A DNA stretch of 63,981 bases, the filler included, from Caldilineae bacterium (GTDB taxonomy: Bacteria; Chloroflexota; Anaerolineae; DTLA01): the NCBI GenBank assembly GCA_037446815.1. It is 5 parts of 5 records of this genome, joined end to end, with 100 filler letters (N's around TTAATTAATTAA, not from the genome) between each part and the next. Parts side by side here need not be neighbours in the genome. Positions count along the whole stretch, not along the records: positions 1 to 13,335 come from JBBIHX010000070.1; 4 more parts are not named here. The stretch is one strand, 5' to 3'. This document shows, piece after piece, positions 2,819-8,800 of this stretch. Made by a program: the position numbers. Within the stretch, counting starts at the first letter, position 1. Each line of letters begins with the position of its first letter.

Positions 2819-5800
2819 GGCCCAGGCCGATGTGGGCATCGCCATCGGCACGGGCACCGACATCGCCATGGAGGCCGCCGACATCACGCTGATGAGCGGC
2901 GACCTGCGGGGCGTTGCGCGGGCGGTTGCCCTGTCGCGCGGCACCATGCGCACCATCAAGCAGAACCTGTTCTGGGCGTTCTTCTACAACACGATTCTGA
3001 TTCCGGCGGCGGCTGCCGGGTTCCTGAACCCCATGCTGGCGGCGGGTGCCATGGCGATGAGTTCTGTCTTCGTGGTAACCAACTCGCTGCGGCTACGGGG
3101 GTTCAAGGTGCGGGAAGCGTAGCGCCGCGCAGGGATACGAAAAACCGCGAATGCGCGCGACTCTGCACGAATCGCGGCATTCGCGGTTTTCTTATGCTGT
3201 GTACCCGACTACTTGGGCACTTCGGTTACAATCACGGCTCGGTTGGCTTCCAATTCCGCGGGATCCACGTCCTTCTCGGTCAGGAACAACTCCGGATGGC
3301 CGTGGCAGTTCTTGCAGTCCTGGTTCTGCGGCGTGATCTTCTGGATGTTGTGCACGGTGGCGTACTTCCACGTGGGCACTGAAGCCCAGTTCGGGAGCAT
3401 GTTGTCGCCGTAGTATCCGAAGATGTCTTCCGGCACCGGAATGTGCCGCACCAGGACGTACTCCCACGGGCGGTCGGGCGTCGGACTCGGGTTCTTGCCG
3501 ATCTTGAACGTCATCACCGACGGGTCTAGTTTGCGATATGGCAGTCCTTCCTTGTCCAGACCGACGTGGCAGTTCCAGCAGGACTTGTACGCGCCGGCGG
3601 AGTGGCACACGCGGCAATCCAGTTTGTCGCCGTGGATGTTGTGCTGCATGACCTCGCCCTTGCCGGGCGCGGCATCCGGGTGGCAATCCAGGCACGAAGG
3701 CGCAGGCTTGCCGTCGTAGCGGTGGGCGTACTGCGTGCCGTCGCCGTGGAACTGGGTCATGTTGTGGCACTTGAAGCAATTGACGCCCTTGGTCCAGTGG
3801 ACATCGCCAGGGATGCCGGCGTTCTTGCCCATGAACTCGGGGCCAACGCGCCCGCCGTGGCAGCCCAGGCATGTGTCGCTGAGCGAGACGATGCTCTTGA
3901 CCTGGTGGTCCTTCACGAGGCCGCCATCCGCCGACGTGGGGCGCGAGATGTGGCACTGGCCGCAGGTCGCGTGGCAACTGGTGCAGTGGCGGTTGAAGAT
4001 TTCGGCCTTGGCCGGGTCCTTGAAGTCAAACCCGCGCTGGCTCAGTATGGTGTAGTATCCGTTGATGGTGTAGTGGAGCGACGTGGCCGAGGTCTTGGCG
4101 ATGTCGCCGTGGCAGTTGGCGCAGACGCCGCCCTTGTCGGCAGACGGGTCGCGCACCACGCCCTGGTGGGCCGCCGCTTTGTCATTGGTGTCGGGCTGGC
4201 CGCCATGGCAGCCGATGCAGTTGGGCGTGTTGTGCACATCCTTGAGGAACGTGTCGTCGCCGATGAAGACCTTTTCCCATGCCTCCAACGGAGGCAACTC
4301 GCCCGCTCAGCCCTCGCCTTCGGTCTCGGCCGAGCCGGTCTTCTTGGTTTCGGCCAGTTTCTGGAGCGTCGCGGGGTCGGTATGACACGCCACGCAGTTG
4401 TCCGCGCTGGGGATGGGCGTGGGTGTCGGCGGTACGGGAGTGTTGGTTGGTGCTGGGGTGTTCGTGGGCGGCGGTACAGGCGTATTGGTCGGCGGTACTT
4501 TCGTAGGCACTGTGGTCGGCGTAGGCGTCGCCGCGGCTCCACAGGCCGCCAGGATCAGCACCGTGATCCCAACCAAACCCGCCACCCAAATCAGGGTTTT
4601 GGGTTTCATGGCTTACCTCTCTTCAGGGACTCTTTTGTGCAATCTCTCGGCTAAACGGTTGCGCTTCGGGGAATTGCTTCGTGGCAATTCCCCGAAGCAG
4701 GCCTTACCGCGTCAAGACGCCCGGAGGCCAACCGGCGTCTGTGACGGACGAAACTACCGAGCCGCACGCTTGGCGTACAGCGCACTGCCCGTGAACAGGG
4801 CGGCGATGCCGGCGACCAGCACGAGCCAGGTCAGGTTCATCTCGGCGCCGGTAACAGGCAGGGTGGTGGGAGCGGCGCTGCCTTCAACCGGGTAGTCGGG
4901 CGCGGTAGCAACGTCGTACCGCGGCTGCGCCAGGACCTTGTCGTCCTTCGTCCAACCCATCATACCGTACTTGATGTTGCCGGCATCATAGCCCAGGAGG
5001 CCGAGGATGGTGGCCGCGACCATGCCGGTGTGGCCGGTGTAGCAGTAGACCACAACGCGCTTGTCGGGGGGCAACTTGGCCAGGTTCTCGGGCTTCGCGA
5101 TGTCCTTGTAGAAGATGTTGATGGCGCCCGGGATGTGGCCCAGCGCGTAGTGCTCGGCAGTGCGCACGGAGACGATGACCGGGTTGTTGGAGGCGTCGCC
5201 GTCGTTCAGGTTCTCAAAGATGGAATCGGCGGTAACGATGGGGGCCTTGGCCGTGTTCAGCCAGTTGTCGGCTGCGGTGCGGATGATCTCAAAGTCCCCG
5301 CTGGCGCCGGTGGAGACGGTCGGGTACGGATAGGTGGCCGTGGCTTCGTTGACCGTGGTCTCCAACGGGTAGTCGCGCTGATCCGTATCGGGGCCAAAGC
5401 GCTTGGTGGCGAGAACGGTGTCGTTCTTCGTCCAGCCCATGATCCCGAACTTGAGGTTGACGGCGTTGTAGCCCAGGAGATTCAGAATCGTCGTGGCAAT
5501 CTGCCCGGTGTGGCCGGTGTAGCAATAGACCACGATCTGCTTGTCCTTGGGCAGTTTGGCCAGGTTCTCGGGCTTGGCGATCGTCTTATAGGGGATGTTG
5601 ATGGCGCCTGGAATGTGGCCCAGCGCGTAGTGCTCCGCAGAACGCACGCTCACGATAAACGGGTCATTGCTGGCATCCCCGTCGTTCAGCAGCGTGAACA
5701 GCGCGTCGGCGGTGATGACGGGAGACTTGACGGTGGTGAGATACTTCTCCGCCGCGGCCCGAATGACCTCAAAGTCGCCGCTGGGGCCTTCGGCAAGAAC

Positions 5801-8800
5801 GGGAGAGACAGCGATGAGCAGGAGAGCTACGGCGAGTAGCAACGACACGACTTTGTTCCGCATAGACCTTCTTTCCTCCTTGAATGGATTCTTTAGGTGG
5901 TGCAGGATTTCAAAGAACTGGCCTCCGCTGACGCTTGACCGGCGCTGTACGCACGACGGCTTGTGCGTATTGTAACGACTAGGAAAGTATCTGTCAAATC
6001 TATGGAGCCGCTGCATCCTGTAAACCCCATAAATAAGGGAAACTTATCTATGGCACAATCTGACACAATGTTTTCTTTCCAATGTGGCGCGAAGACGCGG
6101 CAATCCGTCGCGCATGTGGGGACAACGTCGGGGATGTAGCGAACGGCGCGGCGGAGTGCGGCGACCTGTCGCACCTGTGGGGACAACCCTCATCCTTCGG
6201 GCGAGGGTGAGGGTGAGGGGCAGCACGCGCGCACGGCCTACGCCAGCCTCTGCTCGCAATTCTCCCGCTGGCCGCAGCGCAGGCACTTCTGCGGCGTCTC
6301 GTGATCGCGGTCGGCGGAACCCCGAGCGCGGGCCTCTCGCATCGCCGCCAGGGTTTCCAGCACGCGCCGACGGAGCGCATCGTCATAGGGAATCTGCACC
6401 GTGGCGTCGTCATAGCGCAGCAAGCCGTAGGGCGGGCGCGCGCCGAACTCCTCCTCCGCCAGCAGGCAGTACGCCGCCAGTTGCAGGACATGGCCCTCGT
6501 AGGGTTCGGCAGGGGCCTGGCCCGACTTCACCTCCACGGGCACGCGCGCGTTTCCCACGCGCACCAGGTAATCGGGTCTGCCGGTGAGGCCGTAGCGGCG
6601 GGAGTACAACGGCTCGCGCGTTCGCTCCCATCGGCCCGTGTCGCCGTACACCAGGCGGCCGCGCGGAAGCCCCGCTGCCTTCCATTGCCCGCGCGCCCAG
6701 AGCCACACGCCCAACCCGAAGATGAGCAGGGCAAGCGCGACGACGATGACAACTGTCGCGGACATCTCACCCTCCCCACAGGCGGGCGATGACCCAGGCG
6801 ACCAACGCCAGGGCGCCCAGAACGGCCAGGGCGATGCCCACGCGCTGGACGACGAGCGCCACGTACACCCTTCTCCCGTGGCGGCGGTGGGATTCGGTGC
6901 CGGCCTCCAAGTCGGCGACGTTGGCCGACGGGAGGCGCAGGACGTGCTCCAGGTACCAGGCGTGAGGGCAGTAGGTGAACTGGCCGATTTCACTGGCCCG
7001 AACCACGTAGCGCGATGATTTGGACACTGGACACTCCTTACAAATGAGCGTTCACCGCGGAGGCGCGGCGAGCGCGGGGGCACGCCCCGCTGCCCCTCTG
7101 CCACATACCACCGCGTAGGGCAGGTTGTAGGGGCAGCCGTAGGGGCAGGTCTGAGACCTGCCCCACCTCACCGCGGCAGCCCCTGCAATGCGGCGACCGA
7201 CGCGGCCGCGGCGACCGCGCCTAACAGCAGCCCGCCCAGCGCGTCCCCCGCGTAGTGCACGCCCAACGCCACCCGCGCCGCCGCCACGCCCAACGCGCAG
7301 AGCGCCGCCACCGCTGCCACATCGGGGCACGCCGCGCCCGCCACAACCGCAACCGCCGCCACACGCGCCGCGTGGCCCGATGGAAACGAGTAGCGATCCA
7401 GGCGGCGCGAATACAGGCCCGGCGCGTAGCCGTCGGGACGGGGCCGGCGGATAATGCGCTTGATGACGCCGCCCACGATGCCCACCACCAGCACCGCGGC
7501 GGCCATGCGAACCGCAAGCGCGCGCAGCGAGACCCCGCCCCATGCATACAGCGCGATGAGAACGGCGGCCCACAGCGGGCTATCGCCCAGGTGGGCAACG
7601 GCCAAGGCACCCAGGCGAAGCCCGCGCCAGGTGTCGGGAATCCGCAGCCGCTCACTGATGCGGCGATCCAGCGCCGCCGCGGCTTGCCACGGGCTCATGC
7701 GCGGTGCGTCTCCATGTAGCGGATGACCATCTCCAATTGGTGGGGCTTGTCCACATCCATCGCCAGTTCCCAGTCGGGCGAGGCGACGACGCGGCCCTCA
7801 ATGCCCAGAATCTCGCTCACGCGGCGCTCCGCGTCGGCGAGGGTGAGGCGGCGGAGCAAGATGGCCAGCAAGAAGCGCGGCCCCAGCACCCGCGCCATCT
7901 TCAGCGCGTCCTTGCGTTGGGCGATGAGGTCGCGCATCATCTGCACCTTCTGCATGGACAGGTCGGAGCGCACCATGAACAGGTCGCCGCCGTCCCAATA
8001 GCCGTCCTTGAGGTGGGCATAACTGCGCCCCGAGCCGGGGAACGCCGCCTCCAGGATGGACTTCTCCACGACCGAGTAGAACAGGTCGCCGCCGCGCTTC
8101 ACGCACGTGTCGGCGAATCGCGCCACGACCGGGCCGGTCAGCAGCGGGATGTCCGACGAGGCGATGAGGACGTAGGGCGAAATGCGCCCCGTTGCGCGGA
8201 GCCAGTCCAGCCCGGCCAGCGTGTTGGCCACGATGTCGCCCTTAGCCGCCAGGTTTGCAACCGGCCCCGAGAAGGGGACCTCGTCCTCCGGCCCCAGCCC
8301 GACGCACACAATGCGGTCCACGCAGCCGCTGGCGCGCAGCGCCTCCTCCACGTACACCACCATCGGCTTCCCCAGAATCGGCAGGAGCGCCTTCCGGGTA
8401 ACCGACGCCCCGGCCAGTAGGGGGTCGGCCTCGCCTGCCGTCGCGCCGGCAAGGATGATCGCGTCCAGGCTCGTGTTCTCCGCGCTCATAGGGCTTGCAC
8501 CGTGGGGCGGAGATTCAGTTTCTGAAGCATGGCCTCTATCTCCGAATCGGTGAGCGGGCGGCCAAACCCGGCCAAGGCCACCAGGCACGCCTCCATGACA
8601 TTGGTGCCAAAGGTGCGGCCTTCCAGACGCGGCGTCGTCGTGGCCAGGTACCGCACGCCAGCGTTTCGCAGCGTCTCCACGTCGGCGGCCGTGGTGGTGT
8701 TGGTAACCACCACCTTGCCATCCAGGCGCGGCGGCATGTGGCGGTAGATGTAGTTGAAGTCGCCCGCGATGACCGACGCCCACTGATAGTAGCGCTCAAA

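What a model noticed while it worked through the whole genome (the two positions that open the first line are those of the whole stretch)
3209..5863. New selenoprotein family: an 11-haem c-type cytochrome lipoprotein with a conserved EGEG-Sec motif, paired with a rhodan [...]
Two gene calls (g01589, 100 aa with a lipoprotein signal and one CxxCH; g01588, 362 aa with ten CxxCH but no signal peptide) are one 466-residue reading frame interrupted only by an in-frame TGA, and that TGA is kept at the same spot in every full-length relative found in other Anaerolineae. I read it as a selenocysteine-containing undecahaem cytochrome that, with the secreted double-rhodanese protein encoded just upstream in nearly all relatives, forms an extracytoplasmic reductase for a chalcogen substrate (polysulfide/sulfur, thiosulfate or selenite). 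It would be a second, unrelated family of multihaem selenoenzymes beside MccSep and would point to sulfur or selenium respiration in Anaero [...]
Evidence so far: Read-through of C70:3212-4609(-) with TGA=U gives 466 aa, U101, 11 CxxCH motifs. search_genomes over 81 Anaerolineae genomes: 18 with a match at E<=1e-10; all 15 matches that span the site (this genome and 14 others, 43-94% identity) have exactly one in-frame stop and it is TGA; the 3 without a stop do not cover residue 101. In the 6 loci read the context is the same: NC(V/M)ACHT...E(T/P)EGEG-TGA-A(G/A)..PP(L/V)E(A/V)W(E/Q)KV. A short hairpin, (G/A)CCUCC-GUU-GGAGG(C/U), starts 13-14 nt after the UGA in 6 of 6 loci, its outer pair changing G-C to A-U in two; by energy alone the 60 nt after the UGA are not unusual (-16.9 kcal/mol, z 0.27 against 200 shuffles, call 134). 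The genome has tRNA-Sec [...]
(Added by a program. Inside this text positions count along the whole contig: they may not be those of the stretch shown here. "Call 12" and the like, gene names such as g00115 and contig names such as C1 are that model's own, and its searches are not shown. The text may have been shortened before it was handed on; [...] marks where a part breaks off. The agent that wrote the report below was given it as the finding of a first reader that could run no searches.)

Follow-up and report, generated by a model that had tools for sequence, protein, structure and literature searches.

The report
Selenocysteine undecahaem cytochrome with rhodanese partner
Two adjacent gene calls are really one cell-surface cytochrome with eleven haems and a selenocysteine, kept next to (or fused with) a sulfur-carrying rhodanese protein in hundreds of uncultured bacteria, so it is probably an undescribed enzyme for breathing sulfur or selenium compounds.

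Summary
Window 3212-4609(-) is one 466-codon frame with a single TGA at codon 101 and 11 CxxCH. The TGA sits at the same codon in 44 of 50 relatives read from Anaerolineae and in 79 of 79 read from all species genomes. A 6-7 bp hairpin starts 11 nt after the UGA and shows compensatory changes. Its four codons are the most synonymously constrained of 149 conserved codons. It has the geometry of the SECIS of this genome's own SelD. tRNA-Sec, SelA, SelB and SelD are present.

Sense-codon forms (W, L, C, G, V, V) nest inside Sec clades, have a degraded hairpin and have no rhodanese neighbour. Sec forms have a multi-rhodanese gene upstream, downstream or fused in frame. Some relatives place an FeS/NrfD quinol module and a 10-19-haem cytochrome in the same operon.

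The modelled fold resembles octahaem tetrathionate reductase (Z 9.5). The protein matches no NCBIfam model of a Sec cytochrome and is not in the MccSep family lists.

Best reading: a new, widespread selenoprotein family that acts as an extracytoplasmic sulfane-sulfur/polysulfide (or selenite) reductase. It is analogous to ExtH-MccSep but not homologous. Selenium insertion and substrate are untested.

The parts
3212..4609 (-). Full coding sequence of the Sec-containing undecahaem lipoprotein cytochrome (466 codons; stop at 3209-3211)
   Evidence: translation with TGA=U, 11 CxxCH. (100% self match with 1 TGA). (model of residues 63-466, pLDDT 90.2).
4307..4309 (-). UGA codon 101, read as selenocysteine, in the motif E-G-E-G-U-A-G
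   Evidence: Same codon is TGA in 44 of 50 loci and in 79 of 79 loci.
4280..4296 (-). SECIS-like hairpin U-GCCUCC-GUU-GGAGGC-A; its G-C stem begins 11 nt after the UGA
   Evidence: 96.9% of cells paired against 42-55% when slid; pair types GC/GU/AU/CG and CG/GC; its four codons have the lowest synonymous entropy of 149 conserved codons; alternative hairpins in variant sequences; same geometry as the SelD SECIS of this genome.
4541..4609 (-). Lipoprotein signal peptide ending in lipobox L-A-A-C23
   Evidence: Read from the translation. The lipobox consensus is recalled, not computed.
4406..4540 (-). Pro/Thr-rich low-complexity tether (residues 24-68) between the lipid anchor and haem 1
   Evidence: Read from the translation.
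4754..5863 (-). Secreted double-rhodanese protein (start M52). Signal peptide 5792-5863. Active-site loops CYTGHTG at 5504-5524 and 5024-5044. LPVTG at 4847-4861, followed by a hydrophobic stretch and KRAAR.
   Evidence: PF00581, two stretches, 1.1e-36.. (both Cys invariant in 20 orthologues). (two sortase genes in the genome).
4610..4753 (-). Structured intergenic spacer between the rhodanese and cytochrome genes; a perfect 15-bp hairpin lies at about 4664-4697
   Evidence: MFE -58.7 kcal/mol, z -3.69, 0 of 200 shuffles fold as well.

Best explanation
Shown by sequence:
- The two gene calls are one gene for a lipid-anchored, extracytoplasmic cytochrome c with 11 covalently bound haems.
- The UGA at codon 101 lies in a glycine-flanked loop (G-E-G-U-G/A-G) between haem 1 and haem 2. 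It is decoded as selenocysteine by SelB, tRNA-Sec and a short hairpin 11 nt downstream.
- The protein is functionally coupled to a secreted protein made of tandem rhodanese domains, each with a catalytic cysteine. That protein is encoded next to the cytochrome or fused to it.

Inferred:
- The rhodanese cysteines pick up sulfane sulfur from polysulfide, elemental sulfur or thiosulfate as persulfides.
- The selenolate of Sec101 attacks that sulfur.
- The Se-S intermediate is reduced by electrons arriving through the haem chain, and sulfide is released.
- Electrons come from menaquinol through an FeS/NrfD-type module and a 10-19-haem cytochrome. These lie in the same operon in some relatives and on another contig (C3) in this genome.

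My odds for the parts: genuine selenoprotein about 0.9; functional coupling to the rhodanese about 0.8; reductive sulfane-sulfur/polysulfide chemistry about 0.45.
For: One protein. The frame is open across the TGA. The 362-aa part has no signal peptide, yet haem attachment needs export. Homologues with TGG, TTG or TGT at that codon are single open frames.

Sec decoding.
- TGA is at the same codon in 44 of 50 loci and in 79 of 79 loci.
- Hairpin: 96.9% of cells paired against 42-55% when slid. Pair 21-35 is GC 31, GU 5, AU 3, CG 2. Pair 22-34 is CG 33, GC 9, through a P..A to A..P residue swap.
- RNAalifold finds the same 6 bp.
- Codons +5 to +8 are the 4 most synonymously constrained of 149 conserved codons. 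CCT is used in 34 of 35 although it is 15% of Pro codons; TTG in 39 of 40 although it is 19% of Leu codons.
- Four sequences replace the hairpin by another one, CCC-CGCU-GGA-AGCG-U-GGG. L111 keeps the stem through GCCUG/CAGGC.
- The genome's own SelD has a 6-bp, 3-nt-loop hairpin at the same offset.
- Sec machinery is complete.
- A Cys form (CDGC) and a CxxU form (CDGU) exist.

Rhodanese link.
- A rhodanese gene is adjacent on the same strand in 37 of 44 TGA loci. The other 7 have short or N-masked flanks.
- In the wider set it is adjacent in 68 of 79 loci: 34 upstream, 7 fused, 27 downstream.
- In-frame fusions were read residue by residue.
- 0 of 6 sense-codon loci have a rhodanese neighbour.
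- Sense-codon forms nest inside Sec clades, needing at least 3 changes (quick tree).

Respiratory context.
- Fer4_11 and NrfD (PF03916) genes plus a 10-19-haem cytochrome precede the rhodanese and Sec-cytochrome genes in L071, L083, L085 and L065.
- G000 has FeS-NrfD-19-haem at C3:25516-28569.

Possible catalytic site. There are 11 haem motifs but only 10 conserved non-motif His and no conserved extra Cys.

Fold. The model resembles octahaem tetrathionate reductase 1sp3: Z 9.5, rmsd 4.8 A over 268 residues; the next entry scores Z 4.3.

Precedent. MccSep/ExtKL is a Sec multihaem polysulfide reductase encoded beside the rhodanese-like ExtH.
Against: - There is no experimental datum of any kind.
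- Cys forms are very rare: 1 among the loci read, and none found by the region search. That is unusual for a selenoprotein family.
- Two close homologues carry Trp and Leu at the site. The scaffold can therefore persist without a chalcogen there. TGG also fits a Trp read-through idea.
- The 3-nt GUU loop is smaller than textbook SECIS loops, and no Rfam family matches.
- Four TGA loci with full flanks lack a rhodanese neighbour: L112, L118, L132, L151.
- SelA is in 350 of 401 class genomes. Presence of the machinery is therefore a weak discriminator: 91 of 93 carriers have it, against 259 of 308 non-carriers.
- I could not read model coordinates, so the distance from Sec to any haem is unknown.
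- The window has no quinol-oxidising gene next to the pair.
- The OTR-like fold would equally suit tetrathionate, thiosulfate, nitrite or hydroxylamine chemistry.
Confidence: 0.6

Rival explanations
1. Same selenoprotein and the same rhodanese partnership, but the physiological substrate is another chalcogen species: selenite/tellurite (detoxification or respiration), or thiosulfate/tetrathionate. The rhodanese would bind selenium as a perselenide, or cleave thiosulfate.
For: MccSep also reduces selenite, and its cluster was first tied to selenite/tellurite reduction. Weak sub-threshold NCBIfam hits go to ExtN/ExtM/ExtO and ExtH of the 'selenite/tellurite reduction operon'. The closest solved fold is tetrathionate reductase OTR. 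JGI names many C-terminal fragments 'thiosulfate/3-mercaptopyruvate sulfurtransferase'.
Against: All NCBIfam hits are far below cut-off (35 bits against 200-800). The JGI name has no stated basis. Nothing in the loci read points specifically to selenium transport or tellurite resistance. Sequence alone cannot separate this reading from polysulfide.
Confidence: 0.25
2. The system runs oxidatively. Sulfane sulfur, thiosulfate or sulfide is oxidised at the Sec/haem site, and electrons flow through the haem chain into the NrfD module and the quinone pool, or to an extracellular acceptor.
For: His/Cys-haem enzymes such as TsdA and SoxAX oxidise thiosulfate; the MccSep authors cite them as the reverse chemistry. 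NrfD-type modules are reversible in principle (recalled). A PCuAC copper chaperone and CopA lie nearby in several loci.
Against: No Sox or Dsr genes were seen in the flanks read. The only characterised Sec multihaem enzyme is a reductase. Direction cannot be read from sequence.
Confidence: 0.08
3. The UGA is not decoded as Sec. Either it is a true stop giving a 100-aa monohaem lipoprotein plus a separately started decahaem protein, or it is leaky and read by a near-cognate tRNA such as Trp.
For: One close homologue has TGG (Trp) and one has TTG (Leu) at the site. The hairpin is short. No selenium data exist.
Against: The downstream part lacks any signal peptide, and its called start lies inside the hairpin. 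The frame is conserved across the TGA in every TGA locus read. RNA-level constraint and covariation lie exactly where a SECIS should be, and match the SelD element of the same genome. CxxU and CxxC variants exist. Loss of the TGA goes with loss of the hairpin and of the rhodanese neighbour.
Confidence: 0.04
4. The cytochrome is mainly an extracellular electron conduit (to metals, electrodes or partner cells), like other surface multihaem cytochromes of monoderm bacteria. Sec would only tune one haem, for example as an axial ligand, and the rhodanese would have an accessory role.
For: Weak structural likeness to OcwA, MtrA and the S-layer undecahaem cytochrome (Z 3.8-4.2). A profile hit to OcwA at 9.4e-5. 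W and L variants keep the FeS-NrfD-cytochrome operon without rhodanese. One haem lacks a conserved distal His.
Against: The tight Sec-rhodanese co-occurrence and the natural fusions argue for sulfur or selenium chemistry at the Sec site. The OTR match stands well above the conduit cytochromes (Z 9.5 against about 4).
Confidence: 0.07

Closest known systems
MccSep (= ExtKL, GSU2937-2936) with the rhodanese-like lipoprotein ExtH of Geobacter sulfurreducens (PMC13510729, sections read; PMC5877670, passages read)
   Same: A c-type multihaem cytochrome that gene callers split at an in-frame UGA. Sec is essential for polysulfide (and selenite) reduction. It is extracytoplasmic. A SECIS-like hairpin follows the UGA. 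It is encoded in a cluster with a roughly 49-kDa rhodanese-like lipoprotein, further multihaem cytochromes and a quinol-linked module.
   Different: MccSep has 5 haems, this protein 11. MccSep has Sec at residue 325 in ..IPDGUPTP.. (..PDTUPW.. in Chloroflexota rows), this protein at residue 101 in GEGU(G/A)G. MccSep has a conserved Cys239 that ligates haem 2; here there is no conserved Cys outside the CxxCH motifs. MccSep has a helical cap plus an Ig-like stem; here the model has an OTR-like body. There is no NF040886 hit at E<=10. One named MAG carries both families on different contigs. The solved MccSep chains did not appear in the PDB copies searched, so fold-to-fold comparison was not possible.
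Octahaem tetrathionate reductase OTR of Shewanella oneidensis (PDB 1sp3) and the NCBIfam family TIGR04315, which a 2026 review lists as having GenBank-annotated Sec members (PMC13188914, table passage seen)
   Same: It is the best structural match: VIA-align Z 9.5, rmsd 4.8 A, 268 residues, model 61-404 on chain 1-433; Foldseek E 1.9e-3. It is a periplasmic multihaem reductase acting on an S-S bond.
   Different: There is no sequence-level match: TIGR04315 is not hit at E<=10, and 1sp3 is not among PDB hits of the single sequence or of the profile at E<=1. OTR has 8 haems, this protein 11. Haem 1 and the Sec loop lie in an N-terminal extension outside the aligned range. Where Sec lies in Sec-type OTR proteins could not be looked up.
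Sud (polysulfide-sulfur transferase, a periplasmic rhodanese-type protein) feeding polysulfide reductase PsrABC of Wolinella succinogenes (recalled, not read here)
   Same: A secreted rhodanese-type carrier with a catalytic Cys delivers sulfane sulfur to a membrane-linked terminal reductase. That reductase takes electrons from an NrfD/PsrC-type quinol subunit and an FeS subunit.
   Different: The catalytic subunit here is a Sec multihaem cytochrome, not a molybdopterin enzyme. The carrier has 2-4 tandem domains and can be fused to the reductase.
Surface multihaem cytochromes of monoderm bacteria (OcwA 6i5b; undecahaem S-layer cytochrome 6qvm)
   Same: A cell-surface location, 9-11 haems, and an NrfA/OTR-related haem core. 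Structural Z is 4.2 and 3.8; the profile hit to OcwA is 9.4e-5.
   Different: Those proteins have no Sec and no rhodanese partner. The matches are weak.

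Membership tests
Bacterial selenoprotein (generic criteria) | In-frame UGA conserved at one codon among homologues | tested here: met
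   44 of 50 loci and 79 of 79 loci. 85 of 100 match rows in 401 genomes have exactly one stop, always TGA.
Bacterial selenoprotein (generic criteria) | SECIS stem-loop just downstream of the UGA, under selection as RNA | tested here: met
   No Rfam model matches. The 11-nt spacing rule for E. coli is recalled.
Bacterial selenoprotein (generic criteria) | tRNA-Sec, SelA, SelB and SelD in the genome | tested here: met
   all above the curated cut-offs.
Bacterial selenoprotein (generic criteria) | Homologues with Cys at the Sec position | tested here: met
   One Cys form, L052 (CDGC, 38% identity, long branch). Otherwise W, L, G, V, V. None found by the region search. Met, but thinly.
Bacterial selenoprotein (generic criteria) | Selenium shown in the protein | not testable with these tools
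   Needs 75Se labelling or mass spectrometry.
MccSep / ExtKL (NF040886) | Five conserved CxxCH motifs | tested here: not met
   11 CxxCH here, 10 invariant and 1 nearly so. The five-motif criterion is from PMC13510729.
MccSep / ExtKL (NF040886) | Match to the family model, or listing among the 637 published homologues | tested here: not met
   No NF040886 hit at E<=10. Data S1-S5 (one file) holds 2 Chloroflexota rows, both 5-haem proteins with ..PDTUPW...
MccSep / ExtKL (NF040886) | Sec in the C-terminal third beside a conserved haem-ligating Cys | tested here: not met
   Sec is at residue 101 of 466, and no conserved Cys lies outside the CxxCH motifs.
OTR octahaem tetrathionate reductase (TIGR04315) | Match to the family model above cut-off | tested here: not met
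   Not listed even at E<=10. 1sp3 is absent from the sequence searches of the PDB.
OTR octahaem tetrathionate reductase (TIGR04315) | Overall fold | tested here: met
   Z 9.5, rmsd 4.8 A, 268 aligned residues; next entry Z 4.3. Likeness of fold only.
OTR octahaem tetrathionate reductase (TIGR04315) | Eight haems with a Lys-ligated active-site haem (recalled) | tested here: inconclusive
   There are 11 haem motifs and no invariant Lys in alignment A2. Residue-level superposition was not available.
Rhodanese sulfurtransferase (PF00581) for the partner | Rhodanese domain with the catalytic Cys in the active-site loop | tested here: met
   Two domains, 1.1e-36. The CY(T)G loops are invariant in 20 orthologues.
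NrfD/PsrC-type quinol module as electron donor | NrfD and 4Fe-4S subunit genes in the same operon | tested here: inconclusive
   Present in the same operon in L071, L083, L085 and L065. Not next to the pair in the window; found on contig C3 of the same genome.

The most novel reading that the evidence does not exclude
Sec101 sits on a flexible Gly-rich arm over the one haem that lacks a conserved sixth His ligand. It either ligates that iron or works beside it. It takes sulfane sulfur directly from a tethered or fused rhodanese array. This would be a cell-surface, selenium-dependent sulfur/polysulfide respiration machine that arose independently of MccSep. It occurs in about a quarter of sampled Anaerolineae genomes and in MAGs labelled with several other phyla. 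If so, these abundant 'fermentative' sediment and digester bacteria would be overlooked sulfur reducers whose activity depends on selenium supply.
Probability: 0.3. Interest if true: 0.85.

Novelty: new variant of a known kind. Interest (0 to 1): 0.74.

Why it matters
Sec-dependent multihaem enzymes entered the literature as a class only in 2026, with MccSep. That work showed they can be the missing terminal reductase of elemental-sulfur respiration.

This family has the same logic: Sec, a haem chain and a rhodanese partner. It is built on a different scaffold. It occurs in 93 of 401 sampled Anaerolineae genomes and in at least 579 matches across species genomes. Public databases carry it only as split 'hypothetical' or 'cytochrome c3 family' fragments.

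If the reading is right, four things follow:
- A sulfur or selenium respiratory capacity is assigned to a very abundant uncultured group.
- It is a case of convergent evolution of Se-haem catalysis.
- Thousands of mis-split gene models can be corrected.
- It offers a clean natural experiment: Sec, SECIS and rhodanese are lost together.

Tried and rejected
I stopped that step, so direct binding was not modelled.
- No RNA holder is listed for window 3209-5863.
- Rfam at E<=10 gave only chance-level rows and no SECIS family.
- Single-sequence PDB search found nothing below E 0.017. The profile PDB search found only generic multihaem hits and no OTR.
- Foldseek alone gave one weak row, 1sp3 at 1.9e-3. 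It became clear only with VIA-align.
- The solved MccSep chains did not appear in any PDB search, so no structural comparison with MccSep was made.
- Association of the gene with Sec machinery across genomes is uninformative, because SelA is nearly universal in the class.
- The region search for full-length sense-codon homologues found 28 hits, none covering the Sec site. The search is word-based, so absence is not shown.
- The careful tree did not finish; the quick tree was used.
- Model coordinates cannot be read with these tools, so Sec-haem distances were not measured.
- I considered and rejected the idea that the rhodanese-lacking locus L035/L095 is a true exception. Its upstream stretch is N-masked, and the remaining in-frame residues are the fusion linker.
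- Literature searches for a prior description found none: selenoprotein + cytochrome c + Anaerolineae gave 0 papers; selenocysteine + multiheme cytochrome; new selenoprotein families/SECIS/cytochrome; selenocysteine/octaheme/undecaheme/decaheme/multiheme/Chloroflexi. The deep-Sep paper holds none of the four terms searched in it: cytochrome, heme, Chloroflex, rhodanese. Subscription journals are not covered.

Full report
WHAT IS IN THE WINDOW

Only window positions 1-13335 belong to the contig that holds the finding. On the minus strand, 3212-4609 reads as 466 codons with a single recoded codon, TGA at codon 101 (4307-4309). It has eleven CxxCH motifs. The mechanical ORF list shows the two pieces that a gene caller would make. 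One is 4307-4609, 100 aa. The other is 3209-4297, 362 aa, starting at a TTG. That TTG is Leu105 and lies inside the hairpin described below.

The N-terminus, MKPKTLIWVAGLVGITVLILAAC, reads as a lipoprotein signal with Cys23. The lipobox consensus is recalled, not computed. About 45 Pro/Thr-rich residues follow before haem 1.

Pfam sees only generic multihaem domains. NCBIfam gives only far-sub-threshold hits: ExtN, ExtM, ExtO and DmsE at about 35 bits against cut-offs of 192-800.

The upstream ORF on the same strand has two rhodanese domains. Read from M52 at 5863, it has these parts:
- a cleavable signal peptide;
- two CYTGHTG active-site loops;
- a C-terminal LPVTG, a hydrophobic stretch and KRAAR, which reads as a sortase-type sorting signal.

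The genome has two sortase genes. A CopA-type ATPase converges on the cytochrome gene. The local unit is therefore rhodanese followed by cytochrome.

IS THE UGA A SELENOCYSTEINE CODON?

The genome has tRNA-Sec (69.9 bits against a cut-off of 47), SelB, SelA and a SelD that itself contains a TGA.

A search of 401 Anaerolineae genomes found the protein in 93, in 100 match rows:
- 85 rows have exactly one in-frame stop, always TGA;
- 1 row has three TGA;
- 14 rows have none, and 8 of those do not reach residue 101.

I fetched the top 30 loci and 20 more, including every full-length row without a stop. I aligned all 50. TGA is at the aligned codon in 44. The other six carry:
- TGG (W, L048);
- TTG (L, L049);
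- TGT (C, L052, in the motif C-D-G-C);
- GGA (G, L050);
- GTG (V, L051 and L054).

In the best 80 loci, 79 cover the site and all 79 have TGA. The two sets overlap in part, because both draw on species-representative genomes.

THE HAIRPIN

I aligned the 57 nt around the UGA from the 44 TGA loci (A1). The stem G-C-C-U-C-C / G-G-A-G-G-C, with loop GUU and an extra U-A pair, begins 11 nt after the UGA.
- For this structure, 96.9% of cells pair, against 42-55% when the 3' arm is slid by 1-3 columns.
- 0 of 500 column shuffles reach the observed covariation score.
- Pair 21-35 occurs as GC 31, GU 5, AU 3, CG 2.
- Pair 22-34 occurs as CG 33, GC 9. The CG to GC switch corresponds to the residue swap PPLEA to APLEP.
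- RNAalifold predicts the same six pairs on its own.

I tested this at the codon level. Among 149 conserved codon columns with degenerate codons in the gene, the four with the lowest synonymous entropy are exactly codons +5 to +8 after the UGA:

| Codon | Used at this site | Share of that residue's codons in these genes |
|---|---|---|
| CCT (Pro) | 34 of 35 | 15% |
| CCG (Pro) | 44 of 44 | not noted |
| TTG (Leu) | 39 of 40 | 19% |
| GAG (Glu) | 43 of 44 | not noted |

Further points on the hairpin:
- In the wider set, four sequences that lack this hairpin have a different one in the same place: CCC-CGCU-GGA-AGCG-U-GGG, 7 bp with a bulged U.
- L111 keeps the stem through GCCUG/CAGGC with the residues PELQ.
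- As an internal control, the SelD gene of this genome has a 6-bp stem with a 3-nt loop starting at the same offset after its UGA. It even shares the first two codons after the UGA, UGA GCG GGC.
- In the six sense-codon homologues the hairpin is weakened (W and L forms) or gone (C, G and V forms).
- No Rfam family matches.

WHAT GOES AGAINST SEC?
- SelA is in 350 of 401 class genomes, so the machinery does not discriminate. 91 of 93 carriers have it; G031 and G381 do not. The tally of 350 includes the two genomes flagged unpublished, G345 and G388. No other claim rests on them.
- Cys forms are rare. A word-based search with residues 64-140 found 28 proteins, none covering the Sec site.
- The W and L forms show that the scaffold survives without a chalcogen at this position.
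- There is no protein-level evidence.

THE RHODANESE LINK

Among the 44 TGA loci, 37 have a rhodanese gene adjacent on the same strand. The other seven have 80-648 nt of upstream flank, or an N-masked stretch. The arrangement follows the clades:
- upstream in the clade of the window;
- downstream in the G-V-G-U / APLEP clade, where the rhodanese is itself a lipoprotein with four domains;
- fused in frame in a third clade.

In the fused clade, tandem rhodanese domains run through a short linker straight into haem 1 and the Sec motif. There is no start codon or signal peptide in between. The cytochrome then ends in a transmembrane helix instead of starting with a lipobox.

In the wider set of 79 loci the counts are:

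| Arrangement | Loci |
|---|---|
| Rhodanese upstream | 34 |
| Fused in frame | 7 |
| Rhodanese downstream | 27 |
| None, full flanks held (L112, L118, L132, L151) | 4 |
| N-masked | 1 |
| Flank too short to tell | 6 |

None of the six sense-codon loci has a rhodanese neighbour. Five of them have at least 1.9 kb of upstream sequence.

A quick maximum-likelihood tree places the W, L/G and V forms inside well-supported clades of Sec forms. Starred branches force at least three changes. The Cys form sits on a long, unplaced branch. Sec is therefore ancestral in the sampled family. Its loss goes with decay of the hairpin and absence of the rhodanese.

ELECTRON SUPPLY

I clustered neighbouring ORFs in 41 loci with wide flanks. 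I then annotated one representative each from 12 of the clusters, plus two further upstream cytochromes (14 proteins), against Pfam. This shows a recurrent operon:
- a 4Fe-4S dicluster protein (Fer4_11);
- NrfD (PF03916);
- a 10-19-haem cytochrome;
- the rhodanese;
- the Sec cytochrome.

This order is seen in L071, L083, L085 and L065. A divergent PadR/DUF4388 or LysR regulator is often present; LysR is adjacent in 17 loci. The W and L forms keep FeS-NrfD-13-haem-cytochrome without the rhodanese.

In the window's genome the FeS-NrfD-19-haem module is on contig C3 (25516-28569), not next to the pair. That it feeds the Sec cytochrome is inferred from synteny in relatives.

FOLD AND ACTIVE SITE

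An AlphaFold2 model of residues 63-466, built with a 38-row alignment, has mean pLDDT 90.2 and pTM 0.85.
- Foldseek gives one weak row: 1sp3, E 1.9e-3.
- VIA-align against about 48,000 chains gives 1sp3_A at Z 9.5, rmsd 4.8 A over 268 residues, with model 61-404 on chain 1-433. The next entries score Z 4.3 or lower: HAO, OcwA, MtrA and the S-layer undecahaem cytochrome.

The body is therefore OTR-like. Haem 1 and the Sec loop form an N-terminal addition. At the sequence level there is no OTR signal.

The alignment has 11 haem motifs but only ten conserved non-motif histidines: H126, H148, H179, H208, H235, H271, H288, H326, H389 and H420 in full-length numbering. It has no conserved cysteine outside the motifs. 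One haem therefore lacks an obvious sixth ligand. Whether it is the one near Sec101 could not be measured, because model coordinates are not readable here.

The Gly-flanked Sec recalls the mobile Sec arm of thioredoxin reductase (recalled) and the two conformations of U325 in MccSep.

COMPARISON WITH WHAT IS KNOWN

MccSep is the ExtKL protein of Geobacter (GSU2937-2936). Its features (sections read):
- five haems and a tetrameric assembly;
- Sec325 next to a Cys239-ligated haem;
- it reduces polysulfide and, less well, selenite;
- it is essential for sulfur respiration.

It sits in extHIJKLMNOPQS with the rhodanese-like ExtH, further multihaem cytochromes and a cytochrome b/Rieske pair (passages read).

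The present family shares that logic but not the family membership; see the membership rows. The supplement file of the MccSep paper holds only two Chloroflexota rows. Both are 5-haem proteins with ..PDTUPW... One of them is from a named MAG that also carries the present family on another contig. The two families therefore coexist.

A 2026 review table lists three Sec cytochrome-type families: ExtKL (NF040886), the GSU2204 family (NF041027) and the OTR family (TIGR04315) (passages seen). The window protein hits none of them even at E<=10. Searches of the held literature found no description of this family.

Public protein collections hold it as C-terminal fragments covering 73-78% of the read-through protein (77% for most). 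They are named hypothetical protein, cytochrome c3 family protein or, at JGI, thiosulfate/3-mercaptopyruvate sulfurtransferase. Atlas look-alike clusters carry equally generic names (a lead only).

VERDICT

It rests on a conserved UGA, an RNA element with covariation and synonymous constraint that matches the genome's own SECIS, complete machinery, and joint loss of UGA, hairpin and rhodanese partner.

The functional reading is a cell-surface reductase of rhodanese-bound sulfane sulfur (or of selenite/thiosulfate), fed from the quinol pool. It is a reasoned inference from context, natural fusions, fold and the MccSep precedent. It is untested.

I rate this a new variant of a known kind: Sec-dependent multihaem chalcogen reductases with a rhodanese partner.

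Noticed in passing
window 4610-4753 (-): The 144-nt spacer between the rhodanese and cytochrome genes is unusually structured: MFE -58.7 kcal/mol, z -3.69, 0 of 200 shuffles fold as well. It has a perfect 15-bp hairpin at about 4664-4697 and a second stem right after the rhodanese stop. No T-run follows. It could be an attenuator, a processing site or an mRNA stabiliser.
   Followed up: partly
window 4757-4861 (-): The rhodanese protein ends in LPVTG, a hydrophobic stretch and KRAAR, which reads as a sortase sorting signal. The consensus of 20 orthologues keeps P-x-T-G ... LRRR. The genome has two sortase genes. A wall-anchored rhodanese would be unusual.
   Followed up: partly
G000 contig C13:14206-15138 (locus L016): SelD of this genome is itself a selenoprotein (SCAG-U-AGK). 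Its SECIS is a 6-bp stem with a 3-nt loop starting at the same offset as in the cytochrome, and the first two codons after the UGA are the same.
   Followed up: yes
L151 and L052: A MAG labelled Phycisphaerales has C-D-G-U-G-G (a CxxU motif). The only Cys form found has C-D-G-C-G-G. Most members have E at that position. Neither locus has a rhodanese neighbour in the flanks held, though L052 has only about 0.1 kb downstream. This may be a subgroup that uses an internal thiol in place of the rhodanese.
   Followed up: no
window 693-3122 (+) and relatives: A CopA-type copper P-type ATPase with two HMA domains converges on the cytochrome gene. The same cluster lies next to the gene in 6 of 41 loci. 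A PCuAC copper chaperone is nearby in others. The meaning is unknown.
   Followed up: no
L053 (G104:C3): This copy has three in-frame TGA and only about 178 residues of open frame after the Sec codon. It is probably a pseudogene or an assembly problem.
   Followed up: no
L105 and MccSep Data S1 row 191: One named Anaerolineae-class MAG (records JABWBG01...) carries both a clade-5 MccSep gene and a member of the present family, on different contigs.
   Followed up: partly
L074, L075, L081, L082, L084: In five loci a Cys/Met-metabolism PLP enzyme gene (PF01053) lies a few genes downstream of the cytochrome cluster. This may link the system to assimilation of the sulfide produced.
   Followed up: no
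window 6238-7104 (-): A Cas4-like PD-(D/E)XK nuclease ORF (TIGR00372 62.3 bits against a cut-off of 65) lies directly upstream of the rhodanese gene. No CRISPR context was examined.
   Followed up: no
window 13336-63981: The rest of the window lies off contig C70 and was not examined.
   Followed up: no
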